Below are positions 17,319 to 38,824 of a stretch of 41,367 nucleotides of DNA, in pieces (positions within the stretch are counted from its first letter, which is position 1; each line of letters begins with the position of its first letter). The DNA comes from Vicinamibacteria bacterium (lineage in GTDB: Bacteria > Acidobacteriota > Vicinamibacteria > Fen-336 > JAGNNV01). The notes below the pieces were generated by a model, which made no database searches, was not told the origin of the DNA, and saw only the letters and a list, made by a program, of their open reading frames with translations. A program made the position numbers and the translations under genes. The stretch lies in contig JAENWE010000043.1 of assembly GCA_016650185.1 (NCBI GenBank), positions 1 to 41,367 of the forward strand, in the 5' to 3' direction.

Positions 17319-17348
17319 TTGCCACTCGGTTGGAGGCGTGGATACAAT
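17319..17348 (+). promoter_or_regulatory. Candidate sigma70-type promoter (TTGCCA-N18-TACAAT) for the TolC-like gene
   Basis: TTGCCA is at 17319-17324 and TACAAT at 17343-17348. They lie in the 83-bp divergent intergenic region, about 29 nt upstream of the ATG at 17377. This is a pattern match only. Confidence 0.3.
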
Positions 17349-17376
17349 CCTCGCTGTGGGCCAGCCAGAACCAGTC

Positions 17377-21606: not shown

Positions 21607-21616
21607 TCGAGATCTG

Positions 21617-23383
21617 GTGGCGACGATTCTCCTGAGCTACGCCGCCGGCGCCGCGGTTCACGCTTCCAACCAGCGCACGCTTCTAGCCTCCGCAAGATCC
21701 ATCGGAGGGTTCGACCGCATCCAGGCGCACGGCCCCCTGGCCGCCGATCATCCCCTCCGCCTTGCCCATCGGGACATCTTCGAAGGCCACGAGGGCGCCG
21801 GATACTGGTTGTGGAAGCCTCAGGTCATTCTGCAGGCTCTCGAGTCCGGGTCGCCTGGCGACATCGTCGTGTATGTCGATTCGGGAGCGCGCCTGCGGCG
21901 CTCGCTTGCGCCTCTCATCGCCCTGGCGCGAGCACACGACGCGGTGCTCTTCCTGAACGATCATGCCAACGCGCCCTACACGAAGCGCGATGCCTACATC
22001 CTCACGGGTACTGATGTCGCGGATTGTCATGGGACGAAACAACTGGACGCGGCCTTCATGCTGTGGCGCAACACGGCAAGGAGCCGCCGTCTGGTTTCCG
22101 AGTGGCTCCGCGTGTGCCGGGACGCACGCGCGCTCACCGATCAGCCCGGCGCCTGCGGCCTTCCGGAGCTTCCTTCTTTCCGAGCCCATCGACACGACCA
22201 GGCGCTTCTCAGCCTTCTGGTTTTTCGGGATCGTCAGGACCTTTCCCTGGCCCTGCTTCCTCGTCGGGTGAAGTACCGTTTTCTCGAGCACCATCGCCGC
22301 CGGATCGCGTGGCTGCCGATTGCTTTGTGGCACGCCACCCACGATGCGGCGTGGGAGACTCGACGGAGGGTGGCTCGGCGACGTGATGTGCGCCACCGCC
22401 GCGGCCTGGGCCTCGCGAAGAGGCTTCAAGGCGATCCGTGCCGGATGCAGCGCCTCTCCGACAGACGTCTTTATTCCACGGTGGATCACTGCCTTTCCTT
22501 TCTCCGGACCCTTCCCGAGGCCCCACCGCGCGAAGGCCCCCCCGAACCCGTCCACTTCTATTGGGATGGTCCGGGTTTCGGGGCGAAGCCCGCGCTCTGT
22601 CTGCGTTCCTTCCTGGCGACCCAGGATTCGCGTCGCGTGCGTCCATGGCTGTGGTTGGCGCATTCGCGGGCCTGGGACGAGCGGGCCGTGAACCCTCACC
22701 TCATTCCCCTTCTGCCGCATATCGAGGCGCGTCGATTTGACCTCGCGACGCTCGCTCAAGGCACACCGCTCGCCGCCGAAAGTTGGCCGACCGGACTTCA
22801 GCCCGCCGCGGCCTCGGACCTCGCTCGCCTGCTTTGCACGTTCCACCACGGCGGCTTCTACTCCGACCTCGACGCGGTTTTCCTTCGAGACCTGGGACCG
22901 TTGCTGAACCTTACCGGCGGCCGGGATTTCGGCTTTCAGTGGTCCCTCACCCGGCGAGGCACTAACGCATTCTGCCGCCACGCCCGGAACAGCCCGCTTC
23001 TTCTGGACCTGATGAACCGGGTTCGCGAGACCGGCTCGGGTCATCCCGAGCATCTCTTCGACTTCGAAACCGGACCGAGCGAGATGCTCATCCTGCCCGT
23101 TGCCGCGTTCTCTCCGGCCTGGCTCGTGGTGGATGGTCACGACCAAAGCGCGTTCTCACCTTTCACCCGATTCGATGACTTCTTCGCCCCCCGACCTCCC
23201 GACGATCCGAGGCGGGCCACAGTCGCGACAATCTTTCCCGGGGCATTCACGTATCACTGGCACGGCCGGTGGGGAGCGCCGGAGGCCGCTTCCTCCTGGG
23301 CCGGGCAACTGGCCGAGGACATCCACCAGAAACTGGCGTCGAAGCTTCGCTCCCCGACATTCGGCCCGCGCTACGGGTCATGA
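21617..23383 (+). CDS. Two-domain putative glycosyltransferase: uncharacterised N-terminal domain plus C-terminal GT32-type (DxD sugar-binding region) domain
   Basis: The C-terminal half carries HFYWDGPGFGAKPALCLRSF and AASDLARLLCTFHHGGFYSDLDAVFLRDL, which is the GT32/Gly_transf_sug pattern. The N-terminal half (GYWLWKPQVILQAL, IVVYVDSGARL, HRHDQALLS) is not confidently assigned. I chose GTG 21617, just after the upstream stop, as the start; the track ORF starts at 21506. Confidence 0.7.
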   Translation: MATILLSYAAGAAVHASNQRTLLASARSIGGFDRIQAHGPLAADHPLRLAHRDIFEGHEGAGYWLWKPQVILQALESGSPGDIVVYVDSGARLRRSLAPLIALARAHDAVLFLNDHANAPYTKRDAYILTGTDVADCHGTKQLDAAFMLWRNTARSRRLVSEWLRVCRDARALTDQPGACGLPELPSFRAHRHDQALLSLLVFRDRQDLSLALLPRRVKYRFLEHHRRRIAWLPIALWHATHDAAWETRRRVARRRDVRHRRGLGLAKRLQGDPCRMQRLSDRRLYSTVDHCLSFLRTLPEAPPREGPPEPVHFYWDGPGFGAKPALCLRSFLATQDSRRVRPWLWLAHSRAWDERAVNPHLIPLLPHIEARRFDLATLAQGTPLAAESWPTGLQPAAASDLARLLCTFHHGGFYSDLDAVFLRDLGPLLNLTGGRDFGFQWSLTRRGTNAFCRHARNSPLLLDLMNRVRETGSGHPEHLFDFETGPSEMLILPVAAFSPAWLVVDGHDQSAFSPFTRFDDFFAPRPPDDPRRATVATIFPGAFTYHWHGRWGAPEAASSWAGQLAEDIHQKLASKLRSPTFGPRYGS

Positions 23384-24240
23384 TCGCGACGCTCGAGAAG
23401 TTGTATGGAACCTACCTGGGCGGCTGGGCCCGCTTCCGCCGAGAGCATTTCACGGTGTTCGCGGGTCCGCGCGAAGGGCCTCTCGCGGCGGTCGATGCGC
23501 CGCCCTGGAGCTACTTCGCCGACCCTTTTCCCTGGGTTCACGCGGGCGAGCCTTGGCTCCTGATGGAGGAATTCCAGTACTTCAAGAACCACGGTCGCTT
23601 GATCACCCGTCGCCTCTCGGGTGGACCCTCCGAGGAGATTCACCTCGATGGCCGAGGCCATGCCTCGTTTCCCTGTGTGTTCGAGATCGATGGAGAGCTT
23701 CACCTGCTGCCGGAAACAGGCGAGGACGGAACCCTGGATCTGTATGTGTGCGAGCGTTTTCCCGATCGTTGGCGGCTCCGCCACCGGCTGCTGAGGGATG
23801 TCGACGCGGCGGATTCGGTTCCCCTCTTCCATGACGGCCGGTGGTGGGTCATCAGCTCGCTCCGTGAGTCGAAGGCGGACGGCGGCCATCGTTCTCTCGG
23901 GATTTTCCAGTGCGAAGATCTGCGGACCGACGCTCCAGCCCCTCATCCTGTGAACCGCGAGCGCCGCTACGTGGATTCTCCATACTCCTATGGCCGGAGC
24001 GCGGGCCCCATCCACGTATCCAGGGAACTTACGATGTTCCGTCCCATTCAGATAAGCCGGAAGGTCTATGGAGAAGCTCTAGGCTGGACCCGCATCGACC
24101 TCCTCTCCGCGACACAATTCGTAGAAACGCTCTGCGAGAAGGCGCCTTCCGAGGTTGGCCAGTTGCCGGGGCACCCCCTGCACCATGTCGCAGGGCATGG
24201 CCCATGGCTCGCCTGCGACACCCGCGACCGCAGGCCCTGA
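23380..24240 (+). CDS. Conserved hypothetical protein, GH43-like beta-propeller-type family often found in polysaccharide loci
   Basis: The translation MIATLEKLYG... contains WSYFADPFPWVHAGEPWLLMEEFQY, HASFPCVFEIDGELHLLPE and LDLYVCERFPDRW. I recognise this pattern from an uncharacterised family in glycan clusters, and I cannot verify the family name. The ATG overlaps the upstream TGA (ATGA at 23380-23383). Confidence 0.6.
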   Translation: MIATLEKLYGTYLGGWARFRREHFTVFAGPREGPLAAVDAPPWSYFADPFPWVHAGEPWLLMEEFQYFKNHGRLITRRLSGGPSEEIHLDGRGHASFPCVFEIDGELHLLPETGEDGTLDLYVCERFPDRWRLRHRLLRDVDAADSVPLFHDGRWWVISSLRESKADGGHRSLGIFQCEDLRTDAPAPHPVNRERRYVDSPYSYGRSAGPIHVSRELTMFRPIQISRKVYGEALGWTRIDLLSATQFVETLCEKAPSEVGQLPGHPLHHVAGHGPWLACDTRDRRP

Positions 24241-24276
24241 CCGGACAAAGGACCATCTGGAGTACGCTCGCACCGA

Positions 24277-25113
24277 ATGGCGCATTACGACACCATTCTC
24301 GCGTCGTTTCGAAGTCTGCGACGGCTGGGCCGCGACCCCGAGTATCGCCGCGCCTCGGCGTTCTCCTTCATCTACGGACTGTATCCTCGGCGTCGCCCTT
24401 CTTGGGTCACGATCAATGGAGTCCGAACCCACTTTTGTGACGCATCGTCGTTCACTCACCAGTACGAGGAGATATTCGCGAATCGCACCTACGAGTTTGC
24501 GACCGACAATCCTCACCCCCTGATCCTCGATCTTGGCGCCAACGTCGGAGTGAGCGTGCTCTTCTTCAAGAGCCGCTACCCCGGGGCGCGCGTGATCGCC
24601 TACGAAGCCGACCCCAAGGTTTTCGACTTTCTCCGGCGCAATGTCCTGGCTCATCGGCTCGCTGGCGTCGAGATCCACAACGTGGCGGTCTGGACCGAAC
24701 GGGGAGAAATCCCGTTTGAGTCCGACGGCGCCGACGCGGGACGACTGGGGGAGCGAATGGGCAAGGCGGGGTCGATCGTCGTACCGACCGTTCCCATCGC
24801 GGAGATCCTCCTCGGCCACGAGCGGATCGACTTTCTGAAGCTCGACATCGAAGGCGCCGAGGATGATGTCCTTCCGGCTTGCGACGGTTTGCTCGGTCGC
24901 GTTGACAACCTCTTCCTCGAGTATCACTCGACCACTTCGCGGCCGCAGAAACTCGACGAACTCGTGGGGATGCTCAAACGGGCGGGGTTCCGGCTCTCAA
25001 TCGCTCCGGAGTACGCCCTTCCCGCACCGTTTCTTAAGAGACCCCACGAGCGGCACTTCGACCTTCAGCTGAATATTTCGGCCTATCGCCCGATACCCGC
25101 GACATCGCAATAA
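24277..25113 (+). CDS. FkbM-family SAM-dependent methyltransferase
   Basis: Motifs are ILDLGANVGVSVLFF, VIAYEADPKVFDFLRRNV and IDFLKLDIEGAEDDVL (the FkbM signature). Confidence 0.85.
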   Translation: MAHYDTILASFRSLRRLGRDPEYRRASAFSFIYGLYPRRRPSWVTINGVRTHFCDASSFTHQYEEIFANRTYEFATDNPHPLILDLGANVGVSVLFFKSRYPGARVIAYEADPKVFDFLRRNVLAHRLAGVEIHNVAVWTERGEIPFESDGADAGRLGERMGKAGSIVVPTVPIAEILLGHERIDFLKLDIEGAEDDVLPACDGLLGRVDNLFLEYHSTTSRPQKLDELVGMLKRAGFRLSIAPEYALPAPFLKRPHERHFDLQLNISAYRPIPATSQ

Positions 25114-26039
25114 GCGACCTCGTCCCCCAGGAGCATCGTCCAGGGAAGGGATTCGTTGAACTCGAGTGCGCAATCCGAGAGCGATGAGCGGTTCTTGAGC
25201 AGGTGGGCGCAACGGGACAGGAGCAGGCAGGTGAGGACGGCGGTACGACCTTTTTCGAAGGGGGAAAAGCGCGGGTCGTGGTGGACGCCTCCTCGGGAAC
25301 GGGTCGACGCGTCGGCCATCGGCGAGTTGGCCAGGGAACAGATGCGGCTGCCATAGCGGCGGGTCGCCCACTCCAAGAACTCCGCCTGGTCCGTGGCCAC
25401 GAAGATCTTCGGACGATGCGGCGCATGGTGCTGAAGCAAGCGCTCAATCTGCCGTCCGTATCCCTCAAAAGACGGCCTCTGGGTGGGGAAATGGGTGCTC
25501 TTGTCCGTACCACGGAAGTGGACACCCAGGACGAAGTCCGCGCCCGTCGTGTACTCCCGCAGGTGTTCGTCCACCTGGTCGACCATCCAAGGCTGTACAC
25601 GGATGTGGCGCCTGGTGAGGCGTCGGCACTCGCGAAGGGATTCAGCCGCGCCCAGGGGGTAGGGCTGCCGAACGCTGTTCGTGGGGACGGCGAGAGCCGT
25701 CCACGATTCATTGAAGAAATGCGGACCGTAACAGTGCCATCCGCGGCAATGCACTTCCTCAACCGGGTCGCGGCCTTCTTTTAAGGGCATGAGTTTGCTG
25801 AAGAAATAGGCCCACCAGTTGGGCCCGCGCGCGGCATCCAGGTAGTACGCGTTGTTGAATCGAACGAGCACCTCACTTGCCTCCTGTGCCTCCGCGAACT
25901 TGAGGGCGCCCAGAACCGCATGGAACTCCGAGAACAATCCCTGGGCCTGGGCGAGACGTCCTCCAAACGGGGAATCCACACGGCTATAGACGACCAGCCG
26001 GCGGTCGCGAACGCGTGGAAGCGGCAGGAGGGAATACAA
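25083..26039 (-). CDS. GT23-like (NodZ/FUT8-type) fucosyltransferase-family glycosyltransferase
   Basis: LGVHFRGTDK, IFVATDQAEFLEW and AVLTCLLLSRCAHLLKNRSSLSDCALE parallel the three FUT8/NodZ motifs (GVHVRRTDK, VYLATDDPSLL, DIHFLSQADFLVCTFSSQV). The start is TTG at 26039. The 3' end overlaps the convergent FkbM gene by 31 nt. Confidence 0.68.
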   Translation of the reverse strand: MYSLLPLPRVRDRRLVVYSRVDSPFGGRLAQAQGLFSEFHAVLGALKFAEAQEASEVLVRFNNAYYLDAARGPNWWAYFFSKLMPLKEGRDPVEEVHCRGWHCYGPHFFNESWTALAVPTNSVRQPYPLGAAESLRECRRLTRRHIRVQPWMVDQVDEHLREYTTGADFVLGVHFRGTDKSTHFPTQRPSFEGYGRQIERLLQHHAPHRPKIFVATDQAEFLEWATRRYGSRICSLANSPMADASTRSRGGVHHDPRFSPFEKGRTAVLTCLLLSRCAHLLKNRSSLSDCALEFNESLPWTMLLGDEVAYCDVAGIGR

Positions 26040-26053: not shown

Positions 26054-27022
26054 CTACGACTCGTCAGGCCCCCCACGCCGGGCGGGAGGCATCCAGTAGA
26101 TTAGATCCGCGTCGAAATAGGCGAGGCGCCGATACCCGAGCGGATAAAGCAGACGCTCGTAGGGGGAGAGGTCGCCCCGCGCTTCGCTCACGATGTAACG
26201 AGGACGAAACCCGGCGTGGCAAACGGCGGACAGAACCTCGAGATCGAGCCCCTCGATATCCAGCGAGAGGACGCCGAAGGTGCGCGGGAGCGCGGCGCCG
26301 CGGCTGGTCAAGGACTCCTCGATAGAGAGCATCAGCGTTTCCGCGCTCTCCCCTCGTACCGAAACCCCGAACTCGCCCGGCGCCCCAGAGGGCGCCAAAA
26401 GAGACGAACCGGTGTGAGCCCAACCCTTGATATTCAGGGTCTGAGGCCCGTCGGTTCGCCCGGTCACCGCACTGATGCGGATGATCACGCGATCCTCGTG
26501 TCCGAGCCAGCGCTTGTCCCTCCCTGCGTTGTTCCGAAGCTCGGCTTCGAGCGCTGGGTTCGCTTCGACGAGCACCGCCCACCAGCCGAGTTGGGTGAAG
26601 TTGCAGGAATGGCTGCCTTGAAAGCCATCGTTGGCGCCCAGGTCGATGACGATCCTTTCGTCTTCGGCGATGGACGCGTGTTGTCGCATATGCGAGAGGA
26701 GGAACGCGAACTGACCCCGGCTCGAGACATCGAAAACGGCGCGTTGCACGCCGGGGGAGGTCTCGACGAGCAGCAGCCGGCTGACAAGCCCTTCCTCGAC
26801 CGCCCAGGCTCCGAGATGTTTCAATCGACGGTAGACATCGTAGTGCGAGGCGCTCATGGGCGCATCCGACGAATCGCCCAAGGCGCCCCGGAACACCAAT
26901 CCCCATTTCTTCGCCTCTCGTAGATAGGGCCACGCCTTGAAGCAAAACCAGCTCAGCGTGGCGCCGAGCAAGAGGAGGGCGAGGGCAGCCACAAGCACCA
27001 CGGCTTCGGCGAGTGGGGTCAT
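26054..27022 (-). CDS. Membrane-anchored FkbM-like methyltransferase
   Basis: The N-terminal helix is AVVLVAALALLLLGATLSWFCF. The FkbM-like motifs are VIDLGANDGFQGS, VLVEANPALEAELRNN and VLSLDIEGLDLEVL. Confidence 0.72.
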   Translation of the reverse strand: MTPLAEAVVLVAALALLLLGATLSWFCFKAWPYLREAKKWGLVFRGALGDSSDAPMSASHYDVYRRLKHLGAWAVEEGLVSRLLLVETSPGVQRAVFDVSSRGQFAFLLSHMRQHASIAEDERIVIDLGANDGFQGSHSCNFTQLGWWAVLVEANPALEAELRNNAGRDKRWLGHEDRVIIRISAVTGRTDGPQTLNIKGWAHTGSSLLAPSGAPGEFGVSVRGESAETLMLSIEESLTSRGAALPRTFGVLSLDIEGLDLEVLSAVCHAGFRPRYIVSEARGDLSPYERLLYPLGYRRLAYFDADLIYWMPPARRGGPDES

Positions 27023-27074: not shown

Positions 27075-28076
27075 TCACCGTGACTGACCGATATGCCCGG
27101 CCTCCCGCAGCCAGCGAACCGTGTCGGCGAGAGTGGAGCGCGCGTCGCGGAAGGAGACACCCAGCTCCCTCTGGGCCTTGTCGCTCGACATATACCAGAA
27201 GAGCGTTCCGTAGGGAACCACCGCGGGGTTGAAAGGAAGGGGAATCCGCAGCAAGGGGCCGACCCGCGCGATGAACCGCAGGAGCGAATTGGGGATTTTC
27301 AGGGTGCGCGGCTTCCGCCCGAGAATCGCGAGCGTTGTCCGGGCCAGATCCTCGACGCTCACATTCTCCCCACCGAGAATGTAACGTTCCCCGCTGCGGC
27401 CCTTGTCCAGTGCGGCCACGGCGCCTTCGGCGACGTCATCCACATGGGCGACGCTCGTTCCGCCCGTGCAGACCACCGCCGGCGCGCTGTTCGCGAAATC
27501 CGCCAGCGTGCCCGCGGTGATCATGCCTGTGTCATTCGGGCCGTACACCTCGGTGGGATTGACCATGACCACGCGCAGACCGTCGGCGGAGGCCCGACGG
27601 CACAGTGCCTCCGCTTCGCGTTTTACCCGCGGATAGAGGTACCGGTCGAGCGGCAGTGTGAACTTGCTCTCTTCGTCGTGGACCACCGGTGTGGCCGATC
27701 CGTTGATCGCGGTGGCGCTGGATACGAACACGACTCGCACTCCTTCGCGGGCCAAAGCCGCCCGCAGGATGTGGCCGGTGCCGGCCACAACCACATCGGG
27801 GAGAACGGGGGAATTGATGTCGGTCCAGGAGGAAGGGCTTGCGAGATGGATGACTGAGTCGCACCCGTTGACCGCACGTTCGACGGCGGCGGAATCGCGC
27901 ACGTCCCCGAGCGCCGTTTCGTAAGGGAGACTCTGGATCCGTTCGGTCCGGCTCTCCGCGCGGAGGAGACAGCGGACATGGCCACCTTCCTCGAGAAGGC
28001 GGCGGACCACCCGCGACCCGATGAACCCGTTGCCGCCGGTGACGAGCGTGCGTCGGTGTTCCGACGCGTTCATCAT
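27075..28076 (-). CDS. Extended-SDR NAD(P)-dependent epimerase/dehydratase-family reductase
   Basis: The Rossmann motif is LVTGGNGFIGSRVV and the catalytic Y-x3-K is in YPRVKREAE. The ATG overlaps the TGA of the upstream alpha-oxoamine synthase (ATGA at 28073-28076). Confidence 0.85.
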   Translation of the reverse strand: MMNASEHRRTLVTGGNGFIGSRVVRRLLEEGGHVRCLLRAESRTERIQSLPYETALGDVRDSAAVERAVNGCDSVIHLASPSSWTDINSPVLPDVVVAGTGHILRAALAREGVRVVFVSSATAINGSATPVVHDEESKFTLPLDRYLYPRVKREAEALCRRASADGLRVVMVNPTEVYGPNDTGMITAGTLADFANSAPAVVCTGGTSVAHVDDVAEGAVAALDKGRSGERYILGGENVSVEDLARTTLAILGRKPRTLKIPNSLLRFIARVGPLLRIPLPFNPAVVPYGTLFWYMSSDKAQRELGVSFRDARSTLADTVRWLREAGHIGQSR

Positions 28077-29575
28077 CGGCAGAGCGCAGACCCGCCGAGG
28101 ACGCGATCCGCGGTCAGCCGGATGGCATGGTCCAGGTGGTCCTCGGTGTGGAGGCTCGACACGAAAAATCGGAGACGCGCGGTGCCTGGCTCCACCGCCG
28201 GGGAAACCAGCGGCTGAACGTTGACGCCCGCGGCAAACAGCTCGTTCGACAAGCGCATGGCGTCTAAGTCGCCGCCCACGATCACCGGGACCACGCCGGA
28301 ATGGGCGGACCGACCGACATCGAGCCCGCTTGCCCGCGCTTTCCGCGCAAGATACTCCGCGTTGCGGCGGAGCGTTCCCACGCGCGCGGGCTCGGCCTGC
28401 AGCATCTGGATCGCTCGCAGGGCCGCCGCGGCGTTTGCGGGAGAGATTCCGGCAGAGAAGATGAAACCCGGGCAGGTGTAGCGTAGGTAACGGATCAGCC
28501 GTCGCGCTCCCGCCACGTAGCCGCCACAGCTCGCGAGGGATTTGGAGAGCGTGCCCATGAGGATGTCGATTTCCGAAGCAGGGATCGAGAAGTGTTCGGC
28601 GATACCGCGCCCCGAGCGGCCCAGGACGCCAATGGAGTGGGCCTCATCGACCATCAGCCAAGCCTTGTGCTCGTGTTTGATGCGAATCAGTTCGTGGAGG
28701 TCGGGTATGTCGCCCTCCGTGCTGTAGACACCCTCGACCAGCACCAGTGCCGAGCGGTGGTTCCGGCGCTCTATCCCGAGGAGAGCGTCAAGAGCTGCGA
28801 AGTCGTTGTGAGGGAAGGACAGACATCGCGCTCCCGACAGGCGCGCGCCGGTGATGGCGCTGTTGTGCATCAAGGAGTCGTAGACGATGACGTCCCGGGG
28901 CGAGCAGAGATGGCTGATAACGGAGACGTTCGTCGCGTGGCCCCCGACGAAAACTAGCGCCTCTTCGGCTCCTACGAATCGCGCGAGAACGCTTTCGAGG
29001 CGGCGGTGGATTTCTCGCTCGCCTGAGGAGAGGCGACTCGCCGAAACCGAGGCTCCATACCGGTCGACGGCTTCGCGCGCCGCTTTTTTGACCTCGGGGT
29101 CATCGGCGAGCCCGAGGTAGTTGTACGAAGCGAAATTGATCAGGCTCCGGCCCCCGGAAACGATGGTTGAGCCAGACGCTCCATCGAACGAGCGGAAGAA
29201 GGGGTCTTCGAGTCCCGCGTCGTCGAGAGCCCGGAAGCGGGCCTCGAACTCGAGCAAACCGGGCAGCGCGTCGTACCCTCCGATGGCCTCGGCGGGTTTG
29301 GTCGATTCGACGGGGGCGGGAGCAGACAAGTGTTCGGCGAGCGCTCGGATCGAAGGCTGCTTCCACAGCAGGTCGGGATCGATACGACGGCCCGTCCAAT
29401 CTTCTGCCTCCGCGAGGACCGAAGCCACGGAAACCGAGTCAAGACCATATCCCGAGATGGGCGCGGTGAGATCGAGCCGATCCCGCCCGATCCCGGCTTC
29501 TCCTAAGAAGAGACTGATGAGCTTCTCCTCAACCTGGTCGCGGCTGAAGAGGCCCGGGGGCTTCGAAGGCATCAT
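28073..29575 (-). CDS. Carrier-protein domain fused to an alpha-oxoamine synthase (serine palmitoyltransferase/AONS family)
   Basis: The N-terminal ~90 aa form a PP-binding domain (ISGYGLDSVSVASVLAEAEDW). The AOS core carries INFASYNYLGL, GGHATNVSVIS, LMVDEAHSIGVLG and the PLP-Lys in MGTLSKSLASCGGY. I trimmed the start to ATG 29575 (MMPSKPPGLF...), and the track ORF extends to 29686. Confidence 0.85.
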   Translation of the reverse strand: MMPSKPPGLFSRDQVEEKLISLFLGEAGIGRDRLDLTAPISGYGLDSVSVASVLAEAEDWTGRRIDPDLLWKQPSIRALAEHLSAPAPVESTKPAEAIGGYDALPGLLEFEARFRALDDAGLEDPFFRSFDGASGSTIVSGGRSLINFASYNYLGLADDPEVKKAAREAVDRYGASVSASRLSSGEREIHRRLESVLARFVGAEEALVFVGGHATNVSVISHLCSPRDVIVYDSLMHNSAITGARLSGARCLSFPHNDFAALDALLGIERRNHRSALVLVEGVYSTEGDIPDLHELIRIKHEHKAWLMVDEAHSIGVLGRSGRGIAEHFSIPASEIDILMGTLSKSLASCGGYVAGARRLIRYLRYTCPGFIFSAGISPANAAAALRAIQMLQAEPARVGTLRRNAEYLARKARASGLDVGRSAHSGVVPVIVGGDLDAMRLSNELFAAGVNVQPLVSPAVEPGTARLRFFVSSLHTEDHLDHAIRLTADRVLGGSALCR

Positions 29576-29833
29576 GATCTTCGCGTTCACCCTCGCGATC
29601 TGCGTGTTCAGCGTCCGTCTTCCGGCCGTGAAGGGCTGGGGGAGGGAATACGAGCCTGACCGTAGAACCTGCGTCTTGCAGGACAACGTGAGCCAGGGGC
29701 GCGATCATGCCAGGTCAGCAACCTATTCAGTTTACACATGGGCTCCCGGTACGCCGGTTCTCCTCGGCCGCGCCGGCCGCTCTCATGGAAGCAGCGCGAA
29801 AAATGACGGGGCCCCACCACAAAACCCGCGCCA

Positions 29834-31609
29834 TCAGGCGCTGAAGATCTGGTTCTCCACGAGTTCGGCGTAGACCGAACCCTGGCGCATCAGCGATCCA
29901 TGCGTTCCCGACTCGACCACCCGGCCGCCATCGAGCACGATCACGCGATCGGCGGAACGGATGGTGGACAGGCGATGGGCGATTACCAGCGTGGTCCGTC
30001 CCTGCATGAGGCGTTCGACCGCTTCATGCACTAGGGATTCGCTCTCGCTGTCGAGGGCGCTCGTCGCCTCGTCGAGGATGAGAATTCGCGGGTCCTTGAG
30101 TACGGTGCGGGCGATGGCGATGCGTTGTCGCTGGCCGCCGGAAAGCTGAACTCCGCGCTCGCCCACCCGGGTCTCGAATCCTTGCGGAAGGCCCGTGATG
30201 AAGTCGTGCGCGTTTGCCGCCCGCGCCGCGTTCACGACCTCCGCCGTCGAGACGTGATCGAGGCCGAAGCGGATGTTCTCGGCGATGGTCAGGGCAAAAA
30301 GTGTCGGCTCCTGCGACACGAAACCGATGTGTCGCCGCAGCCATCGACCGTCGAGGGTGCGTGAATCGGCGCCATCGATCAGGATGCGGCCTGCGAGCGG
30401 GTCATGAAAACGCAGCAGGAGGCCCGCGAGTGTCGACTTCCCCGCCCCGGATGCTCCGACGAGAGCGACCACCTCGCCGGGTCGAACCGCTAGGCTGAGA
30501 TCGTGCAGCACCGGCACTTCGGGCCTCGATGGGTAAGCGAACCCCACACCTTCGAAGACGACCTCGCCGGTCATGGCCTCCGCGCCCTTCCCCTCGCCCA
30601 CGGGAATGCGTGGCTCTCGGCCGAGGACCTCCAATATCCGTTTAAGGGCCCCCGACGCCCGTCGGACCTCTGTGGAACATTCGGCCAGGTCGCGAACCGC
30701 GCCCAACGCCAGCATGCCGGTGAAGGCGAATGCGGCGAGGCCTCCGGTGCTGACGGCTCCCGCCGAAAGCTGAGGCATCCCCACCAGGATGACGACGAGC
30801 ATTTCGGGGCCCACCACGGACACGCCGCGGACCACGCCATAGACAAAGTTGGTGCGTCGCCCGATGGCAAGGTTGCCTAGGGCGGCGGTCCGATAGCGTT
30901 GCGACATGAAGGCCTCCTGGTCGCTCGCGCGGACCGTACGAATGCCGGAGATGGCCTCCGCCGCGATGCTCGCCATGTCCCCCGTGTTGGTCTGGTAGTC
31001 GTGGGCCAGCTCGGCCACGCGCCGTCCCAGGCGATTGACGAAGAGCACGAAGGGCGTCAGAACGCCCACCAGCACCAGCGTCAGGAGCGGAGACATCCAC
31101 AGCAACACGATTGCCCCCCCGCCGACGAGCACCAGGCTTCGCATGGCAGCCACTACTTGGCCCACGAGGACCTCCTCGAGGGCCTGGGCGTCACCCATGA
31201 GACGGCTCGTCAGGTCGCCTGCCCGCTCTTCGTCGAAGAAGCCGACCTCCTGCCGGAGGATCGAGTCGAAAGTAGAGCTGCGCAGCCGCGCGATCAAGCT
31301 TTGGCTGGCCGAGCTGAAGAGCACTCTTTCCCCGAATCGGCTAAGTCCGCCCAGGCAGAGAACGCCGAAAATGAAGAGCGCGAAGTCCACAGAGAGGCGG
31401 CCTTCATCCACAACGCGGCCCACGGCCTGTGGGAAGTACAGCTGCGTGGCTCCGGCCAGGAAACCGGACACGATGCCCGCCGCGATCATCCAGAGATCCG
31501 GGACCACGAGCGCCCATAGTCGTTCCCGCGCCGAGACTCGTGGGGAGCCATGGCCCGTGGGTTCGTTCTTCACAAGGGGCCCCGGCCGGCGTTTCTTCGT
31601 GAGAACCAA
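29834..31609 (-). CDS. ABC exporter, fused permease-ATPase half transporter (MsbA-like lipid flippase type)
   Basis: The protein has a six-helix ABC_membrane region followed by GASGAGKST, LSGGQRQRIAIAR and ILILDEATSALD. The start is ambiguous: TTG at 31609, or GTG at 31573 that overlaps the upstream TGA (GTGA). Confidence 0.85.
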   Translation of the reverse strand: MVLTKKRRPGPLVKNEPTGHGSPRVSARERLWALVVPDLWMIAAGIVSGFLAGATQLYFPQAVGRVVDEGRLSVDFALFIFGVLCLGGLSRFGERVLFSSASQSLIARLRSSTFDSILRQEVGFFDEERAGDLTSRLMGDAQALEEVLVGQVVAAMRSLVLVGGGAIVLLWMSPLLTLVLVGVLTPFVLFVNRLGRRVAELAHDYQTNTGDMASIAAEAISGIRTVRASDQEAFMSQRYRTAALGNLAIGRRTNFVYGVVRGVSVVGPEMLVVILVGMPQLSAGAVSTGGLAAFAFTGMLALGAVRDLAECSTEVRRASGALKRILEVLGREPRIPVGEGKGAEAMTGEVVFEGVGFAYPSRPEVPVLHDLSLAVRPGEVVALVGASGAGKSTLAGLLLRFHDPLAGRILIDGADSRTLDGRWLRRHIGFVSQEPTLFALTIAENIRFGLDHVSTAEVVNAARAANAHDFITGLPQGFETRVGERGVQLSGGQRQRIAIARTVLKDPRILILDEATSALDSESESLVHEAVERLMQGRTTLVIAHRLSTIRSADRVIVLDGGRVVESGTHGSLMRQGSVYAELVENQIFSA

Positions 31610-33138
31610 CGACGATTGTTGTGGTAAGCCGACGTGAACGCCGTGAACCCCTGGTCGTAAACCCGGCGGTGCGCCGGGCGGGGTTCAAAGGTCCGTTCCA
31701 CAGGAGCAAGCGCTTCGAGCGATTCGAAGGTGTCCACCACGCCGAGAGCGTGGAGGGTGAGCAATGCGGCGCCTCGGGCAGCCGCGAACTCGGGCCTCGG
31801 GATCCTCACGAGGGGGCGGTCGAGGACATCTGCGAGAATCTGGCTCAGGACGTCGCTTCTTGCCCCACCGCCAGTCAGCCGGAGACCGCCAGCTTGCGGC
31901 GTGCCGACCAGCGGCTCGACCTTCGAAAGAGCCCACCGCGTGTTGTAGGCGATGCCTTCGAAAACTGCCCGGGCGAGGTGGGACCGCCCGTGATTCAGAT
32001 CGAGATTCAAAAACCCTCCGCGCGCATGCGCGTCGTCTATGGGCGTGCGCTCTCCGGCAAACCAGGGCAGAAAAGTGAGGTGGGCGGAACCCGGCTCACA
32101 GTCGTTGACGAGGCAGGAGAGGGCTTCGTGGCTGAGGGGCACTCCTTGATCCGACAGTACGCGAAGCCGTAGCCACTCGATGAGGTTACCCGCGTTTTGC
32201 TGGGCGGCCACCACGAGATAGCGCGATGCGTCGGCGCTGCACATAGGGCCTACGTACGAAAGCGGATCGGACACCCGTCGAGGGGCGTGCGCCGCGACCC
32301 AGGAGCTCGTTCCGATCGATACGTGCATGGCGGCGCCGCGCACCGCCCCGCAGCCAATGGACATGGCCGCCACATCGCCCGGGCCGGTCATCACCACGGT
32401 CCCCGGATTCAATCCGAGATCTCTCGCGGCCTCCGCGGTGAGTGGGCCCGAAGGATCCGTGGGGGCCAGAAGGTCGGGAAGCAGCGACTCCCGGAGGCCT
32501 ATCATCCCGAGAATCGTTGAGGACCAAGAGCGCCGACCCGGCCGCGTGTCCATCAGCCAAGTGAGGTTGGCGCAATCGTGCGAGGTGACGTACCGGCCCG
32601 TGCTTCTAAAGAGCAAGTAATCCTTCACGTCGAGAAGCTTGGCCGTCTCGCGCCAGATTTCCGGCCTGCTCTGGCGGAGCCAGACGATCTTGGAAACCGG
32701 ATCGGTTCCGGTCAGGGACGGAGCCCCGCCTGTAAGCCAGAGCCAGCGGGCGATGCGGGTGGCTCCGTAGCCAAAAACCCGAATCAGGCCGCCCGTGACT
32801 TCCCGCGCCTGTCGCCCGGCCCGGGCATCCAGCCAGATCATCGAACGCATCAGGGGGCGGCCCTCGGCGTCCACCGGGAGTGTTCCCTGCATCTGACCGG
32901 TGAAGGTAAGGGCGCGCACTTCGTGGGCCTCGACCGACGCGTCCGATAGGACACGAGCGGTGGTCGTCCGGACCGCGTTCCACCAGTCGAGAGGATCCTG
33001 TTCGGCGAAACCTGCCTCGGGGAAATGAGTCGGGTACGAAGCGGACGCGGTCGCGATCAGACTCCCCTGCTCATCCAGGAGCACAGCCTTGTCGCTCGAG
33101 GTGCCCACATCGTGGGCCAAGACCAGTCGCCTCTTCAC
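31570..33138 (-). CDS. FGGY-family carbohydrate/polyol kinase
   Basis: The N-terminus is LVLAHDVGTSSDKAVLLDEQG and the C-terminal motif is LRLTGGGARSDVLSQILADVLDRPL. My preferred start is GTG 33138, which overlaps the cdsA-like TGA (GTGA). The track ORF starts at 33156. Confidence 0.82.
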   Translation of the reverse strand: MKRRLVLAHDVGTSSDKAVLLDEQGSLIATASASYPTHFPEAGFAEQDPLDWWNAVRTTTARVLSDASVEAHEVRALTFTGQMQGTLPVDAEGRPLMRSMIWLDARAGRQAREVTGGLIRVFGYGATRIARWLWLTGGAPSLTGTDPVSKIVWLRQSRPEIWRETAKLLDVKDYLLFRSTGRYVTSHDCANLTWLMDTRPGRRSWSSTILGMIGLRESLLPDLLAPTDPSGPLTAEAARDLGLNPGTVVMTGPGDVAAMSIGCGAVRGAAMHVSIGTSSWVAAHAPRRVSDPLSYVGPMCSADASRYLVVAAQQNAGNLIEWLRLRVLSDQGVPLSHEALSCLVNDCEPGSAHLTFLPWFAGERTPIDDAHARGGFLNLDLNHGRSHLARAVFEGIAYNTRWALSKVEPLVGTPQAGGLRLTGGGARSDVLSQILADVLDRPLVRIPRPEFAAARGAALLTLHALGVVDTFESLEALAPVERTFEPRPAHRRVYDQGFTAFTSAYHNNRRWFSRRNAGRGPL

Positions 33139-33866
33139 TCCGCCCGACATGCCCACAGATAGGCCTGGAAGAGTGGGGCAACAAAGATCAGCGAGTCGTA
33201 GACGTCGAGGACACCGCCGTGGGTGGGGATGACCGCGCCGAAGTCCTTGATCCTCGCGGCGCGTTTGATCGACGAGGCGAACAGGTCGCCGGCCGTGCCC
33301 GCGCCGGCGAGGAAACCGCCGCCGATCAGGACCTGTTCCCGGCTCAGCGAAGGCACCGCGAAATGGAAGAGAGGCGCCATCGCAATGGTTGTCACGAGCC
33401 CACCCACAAGGCCGGCGACGGTCTTATTGGGACTAAGCGCCGGAAAAGGCCGCGCTTTCCCGAAAGTAGCACCGATCAGATAGGCGGACGAGTCGTTGAT
33501 CTCGACCGCAGCGTAGCAGAAGAACACATCCCCGAATCCGGTGGGGGCAGCGCCCAGGGCAAAGAGCGCCCCCAGGAAAAGGCCCGGGTACAAAAGAGTT
33601 AAGCCAGCGAGCCCCATCCTCCCCAAGGCCCGGGCCGCTTCGATCGCGCAGGCGAGGCCAATCGCGGAAACCGCGGCCAGAAACCACCAGGGTCCCAAGT
33701 AGGCGGGGACGAGGATCGCAGCCAGGGTCAGGATCTCGACGACGTAAGTCGTCCAAATGCGCCGCCCCATGAGACGGCCTTTGGCCTGAGCGAGACCGAT
33801 CCACAGAGCAGCCAGCCCGAATATTGTGGCGACCAATTCCACGGCGGTCTGGGCAGGCTCACGCAT
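33135..33866 (-). CDS. CdsA-family cytidylyltransferase (phosphatidate cytidylyltransferase paralog)
   Basis: The protein is multi-pass and carries SPNKTVAGLVGG and the CdsA signature region GDLFASSIKRAARIKDFGAVIPTHGGVLDVYDS. The usual Arg after GG-x-x-D is Val here. I trimmed the start to ATG 33866. Confidence 0.8.
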   Translation of the reverse strand: MREPAQTAVELVATIFGLAALWIGLAQAKGRLMGRRIWTTYVVEILTLAAILVPAYLGPWWFLAAVSAIGLACAIEAARALGRMGLAGLTLLYPGLFLGALFALGAAPTGFGDVFFCYAAVEINDSSAYLIGATFGKARPFPALSPNKTVAGLVGGLVTTIAMAPLFHFAVPSLSREQVLIGGGFLAGAGTAGDLFASSIKRAARIKDFGAVIPTHGGVLDVYDSLIFVAPLFQAYLWACRAE

Positions 33867-34070
33867 GTATGGCCAGGCTAGGATAGGCGGCTCTATGCCA
33901 CCTTGCAATGACCTCCGGCACGTGCCTTCAAGAAACAGGACAACGGGATCATGGAAACGACTCGAGGATGGGAACATCCAGGGCGTCCGTTTCCCACCTC
34001 CGGAGATGCAGCCAGGAGTCGCCCCCGATACCCGGCGCCGGGCTGACCATGTGTTCCGGTATCGCGTCTA

Positions 34071-38523: not shown

Positions 38524-38824
38524 AATCACGCCCTTTGTACGCACTCCGTGATGTCAAGAACCGCGAGGTGGTCGGGCGGCGGAGTGCGGGGCGGCGCGCG
38601 CGGTCCGGCACGTCGGTCACCTCGCCCGCCGCAGCTGCCGCCTGCCCGGCCTGCGCGTGGTTTTAGGTACGATGAGGAGACCTCCGCTTCACGGAGCGAT
38701 TCCGACTGATACCGCGAAGCACCGACCGAACGGCGGGCATGGGTACGCTTTCGCAGCCACTATCAACTTGAAGCGGTGAGTCGTCTCTCGTTAGCCTCCA
38801 CCCCGTTCGCAAGCTCAGCCAAAT

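What the first reader, a model, noticed from the sequence alone, without database searches (positions are those of the whole stretch)
27075..29575. Carrier-protein domain fused in cis to a serine-palmitoyltransferase-like enzyme and translationally coupled to an SDR reductase
Seen: one ORF carries an N-terminal PP-binding domain (GLDSVS) followed by a complete alpha-oxoamine synthase core (PLP-Lys in GTLSKS). Its TGA overlaps the ATG of an extended-SDR gene (ATGA), which is followed by a membrane FkbM-like methyltransferase and a GT23-like transferase on the same strand. Established: characterised bacterial Spt enzymes use acyl-CoA or a separately encoded acyl-ACP, and a 3-keto reduction follows condensation. 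Inference: the acyl donor is tethered on the enzyme's own carrier domain, presumably loaded by the FAAL at 35006. The SDR then reduces the 3-keto product or its N-acylated form.
Basis: partly seen in the sequence, partly recalled or inferred. Interest (0 to 1): 0.72.

Follow-up and report, generated by a model that had tools for sequence, protein, structure and literature searches.

The report
Carrier-fused lipid amino-alcohol synthase module
A soil-type bacterium (probably Acidobacteriota) encodes an enzyme that carries its own fatty-acid "handle", is very likely loaded by a neighbouring fatty-acid activating enzyme, and together with a reductase probably builds a sphingolipid-like membrane-lipid backbone; this is a fused, so far uncharacterised version of a known pathway.

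Summary
Minus-strand gene 28073-29575 encodes a carrier (PP-binding) domain with GLDS Ser47, fused to a complete alpha-oxoamine synthase (AOS) with PLP-Lys345. Its TGA overlaps the ATG of an extended-SDR reductase (27075-28076).

- Ser47 and the AOS catalytic residues are invariant in 70 aligned homologues.
- Natural FAAL-ACP-AOS tridomain proteins exist, and their FAAL part is 42-57% identical to the window FAAL (35006-36721).
- A FAAL lies next to the (ACP-)AOS gene in six loci; those that are named are Acidobacteriota and Cyanobacteria.
- One tridomain gene is followed directly by an Sfp-type phosphopantetheinyl transferase.
- The SDR orthologue follows with overlapping stop/start in all three close relatives.

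The "serine palmitoyltransferase" label is not established. The protein scores below every NCBIfam Spt, BioF and Kbl cut-off, so the amino-acid substrate is open.

The context is a roughly 20-kb lipid head-group and export cluster. It contains an MsbA-like ABC transporter, glycosyltransferases, Stealth, LicD, CdsA-like and PIP-synthase-like genes. Relatives carry phosphonate genes.

The ACP-AOS architecture is widespread and was catalogued in 2013. Dedicated ACP-dependent Spt working in trans is already known. I rate this a new, uncharacterised variant of a known kind, of moderate interest.

The parts
28073..29575 (-). ACP-AOS didomain gene. It is 500 aa from the ATG at 29575; the open frame extends to a TTG at 29686.
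   Evidence: ORF list, sequence, Pfam PP-binding + Aminotran_1_2. AF2 model mean pLDDT 91.6.
29327..29527 (-). Carrier (PP-binding) domain, aa 17-83. The predicted phosphopantetheine attachment Ser47 (GLDS) is encoded at 29435-29437.
   Evidence: Pfam E 4.1e-11. Ser47 is invariant in 70/70 homologues and present in 98 of about 102.
29258..29326 (-). Interdomain linker, about aa 84-106, Ala/Pro-rich. In the model aa 90-94 have pLDDT below 50.
   Evidence: AF2 confidence profile; sequence.
28118..29143 (-). Alpha-oxoamine synthase (PLP fold type I) domain, aa 145-486. PLP-Lys345 is encoded at 28541-28543. Other catalytic residues are His237, Asp310, His313, Thr342 and Arg469.
   Evidence: Pfam. 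Alignment to S. paucimobilis and S. multivorum SPT, E. coli BioF and Kbl. Invariance. Foldseek best match 8guh, TM 0.94.
28073..28076 (-). ATGA stop/start overlap between the ACP-AOS gene and the SDR gene.
   Evidence: Sequence. TGATG overlaps occur at the same junction in L001, L002 and L004.
27075..28076 (-). Extended-SDR (HpnA-like) NAD(P)-dependent reductase, the predicted 3-ketoreductase.
   Evidence: Pfam Epimerase/3Beta_HSD. NCBIfam HpnA 226 bits (below cut-off), SdmB and OleD. Motifs. PDB relatives.
35006..36721 (+). Fatty acyl-AMP ligase (FAAL), the predicted loader of the carrier domain.
   Evidence: Pfam and NCBIfam. Top PDB hits are all FAALs. Rosetta-stone fusions and synteny.
26054..27022 (-). 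FkbM-like methyltransferase with an N-terminal hydrophobic segment, in the same operon.
   Evidence: Pfam 24.6 bits. Hydropathy.
25083..26039 (-). Unassigned 318-aa protein. The 'GT23-like' label rests only on a sub-threshold hit.
   Evidence: FUT8_N_cat 17.2 bits against a 27.6 cut-off. No NCBIfam hit.
29834..31609 (-). MsbA-like ABC exporter, a candidate lipid flippase, immediately upstream of the ACP-AOS gene.
   Evidence: Pfam ABC_membrane + ABC_tran. NCBIfam MsbA_rel 502.9 bits.
31570..33977 (-). FGGY-family kinase (31570-33156) and CdsA-like cytidylyltransferase (33135-33977), at the head of the minus-strand operon.
   Evidence: Pfam and NCBIfam.
34071..39802 (+). Divergent operon. In order: Stealth (34071-35009), FAAL, CDP-alcohol phosphatidyltransferase of AIPS/PIPS type (36718-37362), GT2 (37363-38523), epimerase/reductase (38825-39802).
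   Evidence: Pfam and NCBIfam. Junction sequences.
19115..25113 (+). Head-group genes. In order: LicD (19115-19804), nucleotidyltransferase fused to a CobD-like decarboxylase (19801-21606), DXD glycosyltransferase (21506-23383), GINT1_N protein (23269-24240), FkbM methyltransferase (24277-25113).
   Evidence: Pfam. NCBIfam. Synteny with L002 and L004.

Best explanation
This is the backbone-forming module of a membrane-lipid gene cluster. It is a cis-fused, FAAL-primed version of the first two steps of bacterial sphingoid-base synthesis.

Step 1 (inferred). A phosphopantetheinyl transferase converts Ser47 of the N-terminal carrier domain to the holo form.

Step 2 (inferred from fusions and synteny). 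The FAAL at 35006-36721 adenylates a free long-chain fatty acid and transfers it to the carrier-domain thiol, bypassing CoA.

Step 3 (inferred from complete conservation of the catalytic residues). The PLP-dependent AOS domain forms an external aldimine with an alpha-amino acid, most likely L-serine, and carries out a decarboxylative Claisen condensation with the tethered acyl thioester. This releases a 2-amino-3-keto long-chain base and regenerates the holo-carrier.

Step 4 (inferred). The translationally coupled cytoplasmic extended SDR reduces the 3-ketone to the 3-hydroxyl.

Afterwards, the amino-alcohol (or an N-acyl derivative) is decorated and exported by the surrounding head-group enzymes, the MsbA-like ABC exporter and possibly the MacB-type pump encoded in the cluster.

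In this cluster the acyl chain would be supplied on a covalently attached carrier domain, not on the separate AcpR protein that Caulobacter-type Spt prefers.
For: Domains and residues.
- Domain calls and motifs.
- Ser47, His237, Asp310, His313, Lys345 and Arg469 are invariant. They map onto SpSPT His159, Asp231, His234, Lys265 and Arg390 (SpSPT sequence verified).
- The AF2 model has two confident domains joined by a low-confidence linker. The best structural match is S. multivorum SPT, TM 0.94.

FAAL link.
- Best PDB matches of the window enzyme are all FAALs.
- FAAL-ACP-AOS tridomain proteins exist: P0023, P0028, P0036, P0057, P0058 and P0118. Their FAAL part is 42-57% identical to the window FAAL.
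- A FAAL lies beside the (ACP-)AOS gene in six loci. Those that are named are an Acidobacteriota MAG (L001) and a cyanobacterium (L006, Egbenema).
- A PPTase gene lies directly after a tridomain gene (L011).

SDR link.
- Orthologues follow with stop/start overlap in L001, L002 and L004.
- Other reductases lie near the gene in distant loci.
- The SDR catalytic motif is present and relatives are carbonyl reductases.

Lipid context.
- MsbA-like exporter and glycosyltransferases.
- An ACP-AOS-GT2 fusion, P0041.
- Phosphonate (2-aminoethylphosphonate-type) genes next to the module in L001 and L012.
- A PAP2_3 protein in L011.

Precedent. Dedicated acyl-ACP is the preferred donor of rhodobacterial Spt (PMC9386255) and of SulA (PMC9304779).
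Against: - There is no biochemical or lipidomic evidence.
- The AOS scores below the curated cut-offs of all three NCBIfam Spt models (329 against 640, 289 against 500, 215 against 670). Its best score is actually to the BioF model (354 against 426).
- Identity to S. multivorum SPT (36.7%) is no higher than SPT-to-Kbl identity (38.1%). A cyanobacterial BioF with 38.75% identity to that SPT made no 3-ketosphinganine (PMC8895605).
- No PPTase and no conserved N-acyltransferase (ceramide-synthase analogue) was found in the window. The GNAT at 11376-12626 is not syntenic elsewhere.
- The residue at the SulA-Lys281/Spt-Ala position is Ala only in the query and 20 of its homologues (21 of 120 aligned sequences). 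It is Val in the other 99.
- No carrier domain was recorded for 20 of the 120 best-scoring homologues, and 18-20 lack it in the alignment. At least one of these is labelled partial (P0013); how many are truncated gene calls was not checked.
Confidence: 0.7

Rival explanations
1. The chemistry is the same but the amino acid is not serine (for example alanine or glycine). The product would then be a 1-deoxy- or 1-desoxymethyl-sphingoid base, or another 2-amino-3-hydroxy alkane, and head groups would attach elsewhere, at the 3-OH or the amine.
For: - The AOS fails all Spt equivalog cut-offs and scores highest on the BioF (alanine-using) model.
- Arg378 of S. paucimobilis SPT is replaced by Val457.
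- The pocket position 375 is Val in most of the family.
- Percent identity is uninformative.
Against: - The query has Ala375, as bona fide SPTs do (Thr in BioF, Asn in Kbl, Lys in SulA).
- It shares the 'VSPAV' loop with S. multivorum SPT.
- The phospho- and phosphono-head-group genes that travel with the module most simply need a primary C1 hydroxyl. That step is inference only.
Confidence: 0.2
2. The module makes a diffusible amino-ketone or amino-alcohol secondary metabolite or signal (in the manner of CqsA/LqsA, or as a PKS/NRPS-type CP-AOS off-loading step), not a membrane lipid.
For: - CP-AOS and A-CP-AOS architectures were first catalogued among NRPS/PKS-like proteins (PMC3870968).
- Some homologues carry SnoaL-like or PKS dehydratase-like domains (P0030, P0074).
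Against: - There are no KS/AT/C domains in the cluster. The only KS in the window (9811-11271) is FabF-like and 17 kb away.
- Neighbours are glycosyltransferases, phospho-head-group transferases, a CdsA-like enzyme and an MsbA-like exporter.
- The same kinds of neighbours recur in relatives.
Confidence: 0.07
3. The enzyme is a biotin-pathway BioF that carries its own ACP for pimeloyl-ACP.
For: - The best NCBIfam score is to TIGR00858 bioF (354 bits).
- From background knowledge, E. coli BioF accepts pimeloyl-ACP.
- Source annotations call many homologues '8-amino-7-oxononanoate synthase'.
Against: - The score is below the bioF cut-off of 426.
- No bioA/B/D genes are in the window.
- The conserved partners are a long-chain FAAL, a reductase and glycolipid genes.
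- Identity to E. coli BioF is 30.9%, the lowest of the four references.
Confidence: 0.03

Closest known systems
AasR / AcpR / Spt system of Caulobacter crescentus and other Rhodobacteria (PMC9386255)
   Same: A dedicated adenylate-forming enzyme loads a dedicated carrier protein, and the AOS-family condensing enzyme prefers that acyl-carrier thioester. This channels free fatty acids into long-chain-base synthesis. A reductase (CerR) acts afterwards.
   Different: - There the three functions are three separate proteins. Here carrier and condensing enzyme are one polypeptide, and in relatives all three are fused.
- The loader here is a FAAL-type enzyme, not AasR.
- The AOS scores well below the alpha- and beta-proteobacterial Spt models.
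- The SDR here has no export signal, whereas CerR is periplasmic and NDUFA9-like (PMC11087976).
Sphingobacterium multivorum serine palmitoyltransferase (PDB 3a2b/8guh)
   Same: It is the best sequence and structure match (E 5e-71; TM 0.94). The catalytic His, Asp, His, Thr, Lys and Arg, the 'VSPAV' loop and the Ala at the PLP-phosphate position are shared.
   Different: - Identity is only 36.7%.
- SmSPT has no carrier domain.
- The Asn52 position is shifted (SYNY against SNSY).
- Serine use by the query is untested.
SulA, cysteate acyl-ACP transferase of sulfonolipid synthesis (PDB 7u7h; PMC9304779)
   Same: It is an AOS-family enzyme for which acyl-ACP, not acyl-CoA, is the real donor. It makes the backbone of a sphingolipid-like membrane lipid.
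   Different: The ACP acts in trans and comes from fatty-acid synthesis. SulA has Lys281 where the query has Ala375, so cysteate is unlikely here.
CP-AOS fusions of secondary metabolism (SxtA, PigH, RedN from background knowledge; catalogue in PMC3870968)
   Same: A carrier domain is covalently linked to an AOS domain that condenses the tethered acyl group with an amino acid. The A-CP-AOS architecture is listed for Microscilla and Blastopirellula.
   Different: Those act on short or pyrrolyl acyl groups inside PKS/NRPS pathways. Here the partners are a long-chain FAAL, a ketoreductase and glycolipid or phospholipid head-group genes, with no PKS/NRPS modules.

Membership tests
Alpha-oxoamine synthase (PLP fold-type I, Aminotran_1_2) | PLP-binding Lys in the G-T-[FL]-S-K motif, PLP-stacking His, Asp-x-x-His, and the carboxylate-binding Arg | tested here: met
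   Lys345, His237, Asp310/His313, Thr342 and Arg469 align with SpSPT Lys265, His159, Asp231/His234, Thr262 and Arg390. They are invariant in the family.
Alpha-oxoamine synthase (PLP fold-type I, Aminotran_1_2) | AOS fold | tested here: met
   AF2 pLDDT 91.6. Foldseek TM 0.94 to 8guh and 0.94 to 2jg2.
Serine palmitoyltransferase (NCBIfam equivalogs NF047600, NF047599, NF047603) | Score at or above the curated family cut-off | tested here: not met
   329 against 640, 289.5 against 500, and 215 against 670 bits.
Serine palmitoyltransferase | Uses L-serine and a long-chain acyl thioester to give 3-ketosphinganine | not testable with these tools
   There are only indirect hints: Ala375 and the VSPAV loop as in SPTs. 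Identity is uninformative.
[quoted passage not shown] | Score at or above the cut-off, and a biotin-gene context | tested here: not met
   354.3 against 426.45 bits. No bio genes were found among the ORFs scanned.
Phosphopantetheine-dependent carrier domain (PF00550) | Domain score above the gathering threshold, and a conserved Ser in the G-x-D-S motif | tested here: met
   43.4 bits against 20.8. GLDS Ser47 is invariant in 70/70.
Phosphopantetheine-dependent carrier domain (PF00550) | A cognate PPTase and actual holo-modification | tested here: inconclusive
   No PPTase was found among the window ORFs scanned. An Sfp-type PPTase lies directly downstream of a tridomain homologue in L011. The modification itself is not testable here.
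Fatty acyl-AMP ligase (FAAL) | Closer to FAALs than to acyl-CoA synthetases; FAAL/DIP2-type C-terminal domain | tested here: met
   The top 15 PDB matches are FAALs or FAAL domains (E 1e-145 to 5e-57), while CoA ligases score E 1e-28 or weaker. PF23024 is present. NCBIfam FAAL subfamily models are the best hits but fall below cut-off (393.9 against 600).
Extended SDR ketoreductase | TGxxGxxG cofactor motif and a Ser...YxxxK catalytic set | tested here: met
   TGGNGFIG at aa 13-20, Ser119/120, Tyr148 and Lys152. Pfam Epimerase E 8e-33.
HpnA (TIGR03466) / CerR | Equivalog-level score (HpnA); periplasmic NDUFA9-like protein (CerR) | tested here: not met
   HpnA 226 against 367.65 bits. There is no signal peptide or hydrophobic N-terminus, whereas CerR is periplasmic (PMC11087976). 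No CerR sequence was available for direct comparison.
AasR/AcpR/Spt three-protein system | Separate ACP and separate acyl-ACP synthetase encoded beside spt | tested here: not met
   The carrier is fused in cis. The loader is FAAL-type and sits in the divergent operon. The system works like the three-protein one but is not a member.

The most novel reading that the evidence does not exclude
The FAAL / cis-ACP-AOS / reductase module may be the core of a previously unrecognised sphingolipid-type pathway, present in Acidobacteriota and possibly in the other phyla that carry the didomain. As far as I know and could search, these are phyla in which no sphingolipids have been tied to genes.

In this window the base would be phosphorylated (FGGY kinase), CMP-activated (CdsA-like enzyme) and transferred by an archaetidylinositol-phosphate-synthase-like enzyme. 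It would then be glycosylated, phospho-aminoalcohol-decorated and exported. That would be a bacterial, CDP-activated route to GIPC-like or phosphono-sphingolipids of the outer membrane.
Probability: 0.15. Interest if true: 0.8.

Novelty: new variant of a known kind. Interest (0 to 1): 0.55.

Why it matters
If the mechanism holds, sphingoid-type lipid backbones are made by a self-contained "activate, tether, condense, reduce" module. That module is widespread in abundant soil and aquatic phyla: Acidobacteriota/Vicinamibacteria, Gemmatimonadota, Cyanobacteria and Chloroflexota.

Surveys that look for bacterial sphingolipid producers by searching for Spt, bCerS and CerR homologues would probably miss these organisms, because the AOS falls below Spt family thresholds and sources label it BioF.

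It would also give a simple genetic marker (FAAL next to, or fused with, ACP-AOS) for assigning environmental sphingolipid-like and phosphonolipid signals to organisms. In addition it offers a compact three-protein system for making long-chain amino-alcohols from free fatty acids.

Tried and rejected
(1) Assigning the amino-acid substrate from similarity. Pairwise identities to SmSPT, SpSPT, EcBioF and EcKbl are 31-37% and do not discriminate. All NCBIfam equivalogs are below cut-off. Structural matches are equally good to SPT, ThAOS, Kbl, BioF and ALAS. Only weak pocket hints remain.

(2) Looking for a ceramide-synthase analogue. The Eis-like GNAT at 11376-12626 has no counterpart in the related loci. 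The conserved neighbour GINT1_N (23269-24240) belongs to a family whose members overlap GH43 models or are labelled formyl transferase, so it is not an obvious N-acyltransferase. The small unknown proteins next to the gene in L004, L005, L006 and L008 are not homologous to window proteins, and the cyanobacterial one looks like a methyltransferase.

(3) Regulatory RNA or tRNA near the gene: none found.

(4) Promoter and terminator scan. Terminator-like hairpins lie just after the MsbA-like stop (29841-29809), but the overall count is only about 2 sd above shuffles, so operon boundaries stay uncertain.

(5) Literature.
- No paper in the held library contains both 'fatty acyl-AMP ligase' and 'serine palmitoyltransferase', or both FAAL and AONS.
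- The FAAL reviews do not mention AOS partners.
- The Caulobacter ACP paper does not mention fusions.
- The Stankeviciute 2022 paper was not held.

(6) Nostoc Npun_R3567 (PMC8895605) was considered as a characterised relative. It is a 394-aa stand-alone BioF, not this family.

(7) CqsA could not be aligned, because no sequence was obtainable with the tools.


Full report
**1. What is in the sequence**

On the minus strand, an ORF runs from 29686 (TTG) to 28073. From the ATG at 29575 it encodes 500 aa.

- Pfam finds a phosphopantetheine-attachment domain at aa 17-83 (E 4.1e-11, 43.4 bits against a gathering score of 20.8). It also finds a class I/II aminotransferase-fold domain at aa 145-486 (E 1.5e-47).
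GLDSVS is at aa 44-49 (Ser47 codon 29435-29437). GTLSKS is at aa 341-346 (Lys345 codon 28541-28543).
- The gene ends '...tgc cga TGA'. The next gene starts with the ATG that overlaps it (ccgATGAtgaac, 28073-28076).
- That next gene (27075-28076) is an extended SDR: Pfam Epimerase E 8.2e-33, TGGNGFIG at aa 13-20, Ser119/120, Tyr148 and Lys152. It has no hydrophobic N-terminus.
- Downstream lies a marginal FkbM-type methyltransferase with an N-terminal hydrophobic segment.
- After it comes a 318-aa protein whose 'GT23-like' label rests only on a sub-threshold hit (17.2 against 27.6 bits; no NCBIfam hit).
- The enzyme at 35006-36721 is a genuine fatty acyl-AMP ligase. Its best solved relatives are all FAALs or FAAL domains (E 1e-145 to 5e-57), while CoA ligases only reach about 1e-28.

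One qualification applies. ATGA overlaps also join Stealth to FAAL (35006-35009) and FAAL to the CDP-alcohol transferase (36718-36721). Translational coupling is therefore general in this cluster.

**2. Is the didomain functional, and is it rare?**

A search of the protein collection returned more than 7,700 AOS-family relatives. Of the 120 best, 100 carry the PP-binding domain.

- The closest relatives are from an uncultured Acidobacteriota MAG (83%) and a Vicinamibacteria MAG (72%). More distant ones (42-53%) are named Gemmatimonadota, Cyanobacteria (Egbenema, Chroococcidiopsis, Oxynema, Calothrix, Trichodesmium), Chloroflexota (Dictyobacter) and Actinomycetes.
- In a 70-sequence alignment of didomain proteins, Ser47, His237, Asp310, His313, Lys345 and Arg469 are invariant. 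In the 120-sequence alignment, Ser47 is conserved in 98 of about 102 sequences that have the domain.
- I aligned the protein with S. multivorum SPT (sequence taken from the PDB alignment), S. paucimobilis SPT (sequence verified against 2jg2), and E. coli BioF and Kbl. The query residues map as His237=His159, Asp310=Asp231, His313=His234, Thr342=Thr262, Lys345=Lys265 and Arg469=Arg390.
- An AlphaFold2 model built on the alignment is confident (mean pLDDT 91.6, pTM 0.81). It has a four-helix carrier domain, a low-confidence linker (aa 90-94) and an AOS domain. Foldseek's best match is S. multivorum SPT (TM 0.94 on the target), closely followed by ThAOS, S. paucimobilis SPT, Kbl, BioF, SulA and ALAS.

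The protein is therefore a bona fide AOS with an intact carrier domain, and the architecture is common, not rare. A-CP-AOS and CP-AOS architectures were already listed in a 2013 survey, without function (PMC3870968).

**3. Who loads the carrier domain?**

Three independent lines point to the FAAL.

- Rosetta-stone fusions. At least six homologues are FAAL-ACP-AOS tridomain proteins (P0023, P0028, P0036, P0057, P0058, P0118). [quoted passage not shown] In the two whose domain order was checked (P0028, P0057), the carrier domain follows directly.
- Synteny. A FAAL 40-61% identical to the window enzyme lies next to the (ACP-)AOS gene in L001 (Acidobacteriota, divergent), L005 (divergent), L006 and L008 (two FAALs directly upstream; L006 is the cyanobacterium Egbenema), L012 and L013.
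- A PPTase neighbour. In L011 the tridomain gene is followed within 36 nt by an Sfp-type phosphopantetheinyl transferase.

According to PMC8460268 (abstract), FAALs reject CoA and depend on a holo-carrier. In this window the FAAL sits in the divergent operon, 5.4 kb from the ACP-AOS gene, translationally coupled to head-group enzymes. This places it in the same pathway.

**4. The reductase**

- SDR orthologues (81%, 68% and 68% identity) follow the ACP-AOS gene in L001, L002 and L004. In all three the stop and start codons overlap (TGATG).
- In more distant loci a different reductase is nearby: a classical adh_short/KR in L006 and L013, and an Epimerase-type SDR in L005 and L012. This fits a conserved need for a keto-reduction step met by non-orthologous enzymes.
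- The window SDR scores best on HpnA (226 bits, below the 367.65 cut-off), then on the sterol 3-keto enzyme SdmB and the 2-alkyl-3-oxoalkanoate reductase OleD.
- Its nearest solved relatives are a putative oxidoreductase (3wj7) and cinnamoyl-CoA/dihydroflavonol-type carbonyl reductases.
- It has no export signal, unlike the periplasmic, NDUFA9-like CerR of Caulobacter (PMC11087976). A cytoplasmic reduction directly after condensation is the simplest reading. Whether the substrate is the free base or an N-acyl form cannot be decided.

**5. Is it a serine palmitoyltransferase?**

- The AOS domain is below the curated cut-off of every relevant NCBIfam model: bioF 354 against 426; Spt-CFB 329 against 640; Spt-beta 289 against 500; Spt-alpha 215 against 670; Kbl 297 against 460.
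- Identity to S. multivorum SPT (36.7%) is no greater than that SPT's identity to E. coli Kbl (38.1%).
- A cyanobacterial BioF that is 38.75% identical to the same SPT produced no 3-ketosphinganine (PMC8895605).
- Two small hints favour an Spt-like pocket. First, the residue whose backbone binds the PLP phosphate is Ala375, as in both SPTs (Thr in BioF, Asn in Kbl, Lys281 in the cysteate enzyme SulA). Second, the 'VSPAV' loop is shared with S. multivorum SPT. However, position 375 is Val in most of the wider family.

I therefore describe it as an AOS of a distinct subfamily that works like an Spt. Serine is the most likely substrate but unproven. BioF is unlikely: the score is below cut-off, there are no bio genes, and the partners are a long-chain FAAL, a reductase and glycolipid genes.

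**6. Surroundings: a lipid head-group and export cluster**

- The minus-strand unit reads CdsA-like cytidylyltransferase, FGGY kinase, MsbA-like ABC exporter, ACP-AOS, SDR, FkbM, unknown.
- The divergent plus-strand unit reads Stealth, FAAL, a CDP-alcohol phosphatidyltransferase, GT2, epimerase/reductase. The CDP-alcohol transferase is closest to archaetidylinositol-phosphate/PIP synthases. It carries the complete DX2DGX2AR...GX3DX3D motif (DNLDGAVAR...GAFLDAATD; translation; motif from PMC9246714).
- Upstream on the plus strand lie LicD, a nucleotidyltransferase fused to a CobD-like phospho-amino-acid decarboxylase (178 bits), a DXD glycosyltransferase, a GINT1_N protein and a second FkbM.
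- GINT1_N, the DXD glycosyltransferase and LicD recur beside ACP-AOS/SDR in L002 and L004. So does the MacB-type tripartite pump at 12874-18942 (57-69% identity in L004).
- Relatives carry other head-group chemistry next to the same module. L001 has PEP mutase, a TPP decarboxylase, an aminotransferase and a nucleotidyltransferase (2-aminoethylphosphonate type), and L012 has PEP mutase and a TPP enzyme. L011 has a PAP2_3 protein, GT4 and Wzi. The cyanobacteria have GT4 and a fatty-acid hydroxylase.
- An ACP-AOS-GT2 fusion exists (P0041).

Together these argue that the product is a membrane lipid anchor that is glycosylated and/or phospho(no)-decorated and exported, rather than a diffusible metabolite.

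**7. Comparison with what is known**

- The closest functional analogue is the AasR/AcpR/Spt system of Rhodobacteria. There a dedicated acyl-ACP synthetase loads a dedicated ACP, which the Spt prefers over acyl-CoA (PMC9386255).
- SulA likewise uses acyl-ACP (PMC9304779).
- From background knowledge, cis CP-AOS fusions are established in secondary metabolism (SxtA, PigH, RedN). These are catalogued in PMC3870968.
- What differs here is the combination. The loader is FAAL-type. The carrier is fused to, and in relatives all three activities are fused into, a long-chain AOS outside the recognised Spt families. A cytoplasmic extended SDR is coupled to it, all inside glycolipid/phospholipid clusters of phyla in which, as far as I know and could search, no sphingolipids have been tied to genes.
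- In the held library I found no paper that connects FAALs with Spt or AONS. Reviews of FAALs do not mention AOS partners. This is absence in a limited library, not proof of novelty.

**8. Verdict**

- The mechanism is supported by comparative genomics (confidence about 0.7 for FAAL to cis-carrier to AOS to SDR giving a long-chain 2-amino-3-hydroxy base). The amino acid, any N-acylation and the final lipid are unresolved.
- It is a new, uncharacterised variant of a known kind of system. Interest is moderate (0.55), because the principle (a dedicated acyl-carrier donor for Spt-like enzymes) and the architecture are already known.
- The bolder reading is a complete CDP-activated sphingolipid-type pathway in Acidobacteriota. 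The evidence does not exclude it, but support is weak (about 0.15), because the CdsA-like, FGGY and PIPS-like genes are linked to the module only in this window.

Noticed in passing
window 12874-18942; L004 1-5367: A MacB-type tripartite pump sits beside the lipid cluster. It comprises an ABC ATPase fused to a cyclic-nucleotide-binding domain, two FtsX/MacB permeases, a HlyD adaptor and an outer-membrane factor. It is syntenic (57-69% identity) with the equivalent cluster in L004. It may export the lipid or a lipid-linked product. The cNMP-binding ATPase is unusual.
   Followed up: partly
window 19115-21606: LicD is coupled by a 4-nt coordinate overlap (19801-19804) to a fusion protein. The fusion joins a nucleotidyltransferase to a CobD-like threonine-/serine-phosphate decarboxylase (TIGR01140 178 bits, below cut-off). 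This suggests a CDP-ethanolamine- or CDP-aminopropanol-type head-group donor made by one protein and transferred by LicD.
   Followed up: partly
window 31570-33977 and 36718-37362: A divergent CdsA-like cytidylyltransferase, an FGGY-family kinase and an archaetidylinositol-phosphate/PIP-synthase-like CDP-alcohol transferase (full DX2DGX2AR...GX3DX3D motif) sit in the same cluster as the ACP-AOS gene. This could mean CMP-activation of the new lipid rather than of phosphatidate. No inositol-phosphate synthase was seen in the window, and the trio was not found in the related loci.
   Followed up: partly
L001 1565-6182; L012 18766-21348: Phosphonate biosynthesis genes lie next to the FAAL/ACP-AOS/SDR module in two relatives. 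L001 has a PEP mutase fused to a nucleotidyltransferase, a TPP-dependent decarboxylase, a class-V aminotransferase and a second nucleotidyltransferase. L012 has PEP mutase and a TPP enzyme. This hints at phosphono-sphingolipid-like products.
   Followed up: partly
L012 7558-10059; L013 7524-9305: An acyl-CoA-dehydrogenase domain is fused to the FAAL (L012) or encoded between the FAAL and the ACP-AOS gene (L013). If it desaturates the tethered acyl chain at C2-C3, condensation would give a delta-4 (sphingosine-like) base. L001 has a PhyH-type dioxygenase (8146-8922) at the same place.
   Followed up: no
P0041, P0030, P0074 (homologues): Other natural fusions of the ACP-AOS core exist: ACP-AOS-GT2 (P0041), ACP-AOS-SnoaL-like (P0030), and a PKS-dehydratase-like N-terminus on an AOS (P0074).
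   Followed up: partly
L011 2289-3742: An Sfp-type PPTase lies directly after the FAAL-ACP-AOS tridomain gene. It is followed by a PAP2_3/PAP2 membrane protein, which from memory is the family that includes inositol-phosphorylceramide and sphingomyelin synthases. GT4, LPG_synthase_TM and Wzi come next.
   Followed up: partly
window 23269-24240; L002 2232-3119; L004 5376-7067: A GINT1_N-domain protein is the most consistently conserved unknown neighbour of ACP-AOS/SDR in the close relatives. Its family includes forms of about 290 aa and forms of about 500 aa. Some are labelled 'formyl transferase' by sources, and some overlap the GH43 Pfam model. Its function is unknown.
   Followed up: partly
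window 29809-29841 (minus strand): Two overlapping terminator-like hairpins with T-runs lie immediately after the MsbA-like stop codon, ahead of the 258-nt spacer before the ACP-AOS start. ACP-AOS, SDR, FkbM and the unknown gene may therefore be a separate transcription unit. Scan-wide counts are only about 2 sd above shuffles.
   Followed up: no
It comprises two paralogous FAALs, the ACP-AOS gene, a protein of about 300 aa with weak methyltransferase hits, and a GT4. A KR (L006) or a fatty-acid hydroxylase (L008) is nearby. This looks like a glycosylated amino-lipid cluster that appears uncharacterised.
   Followed up: partly
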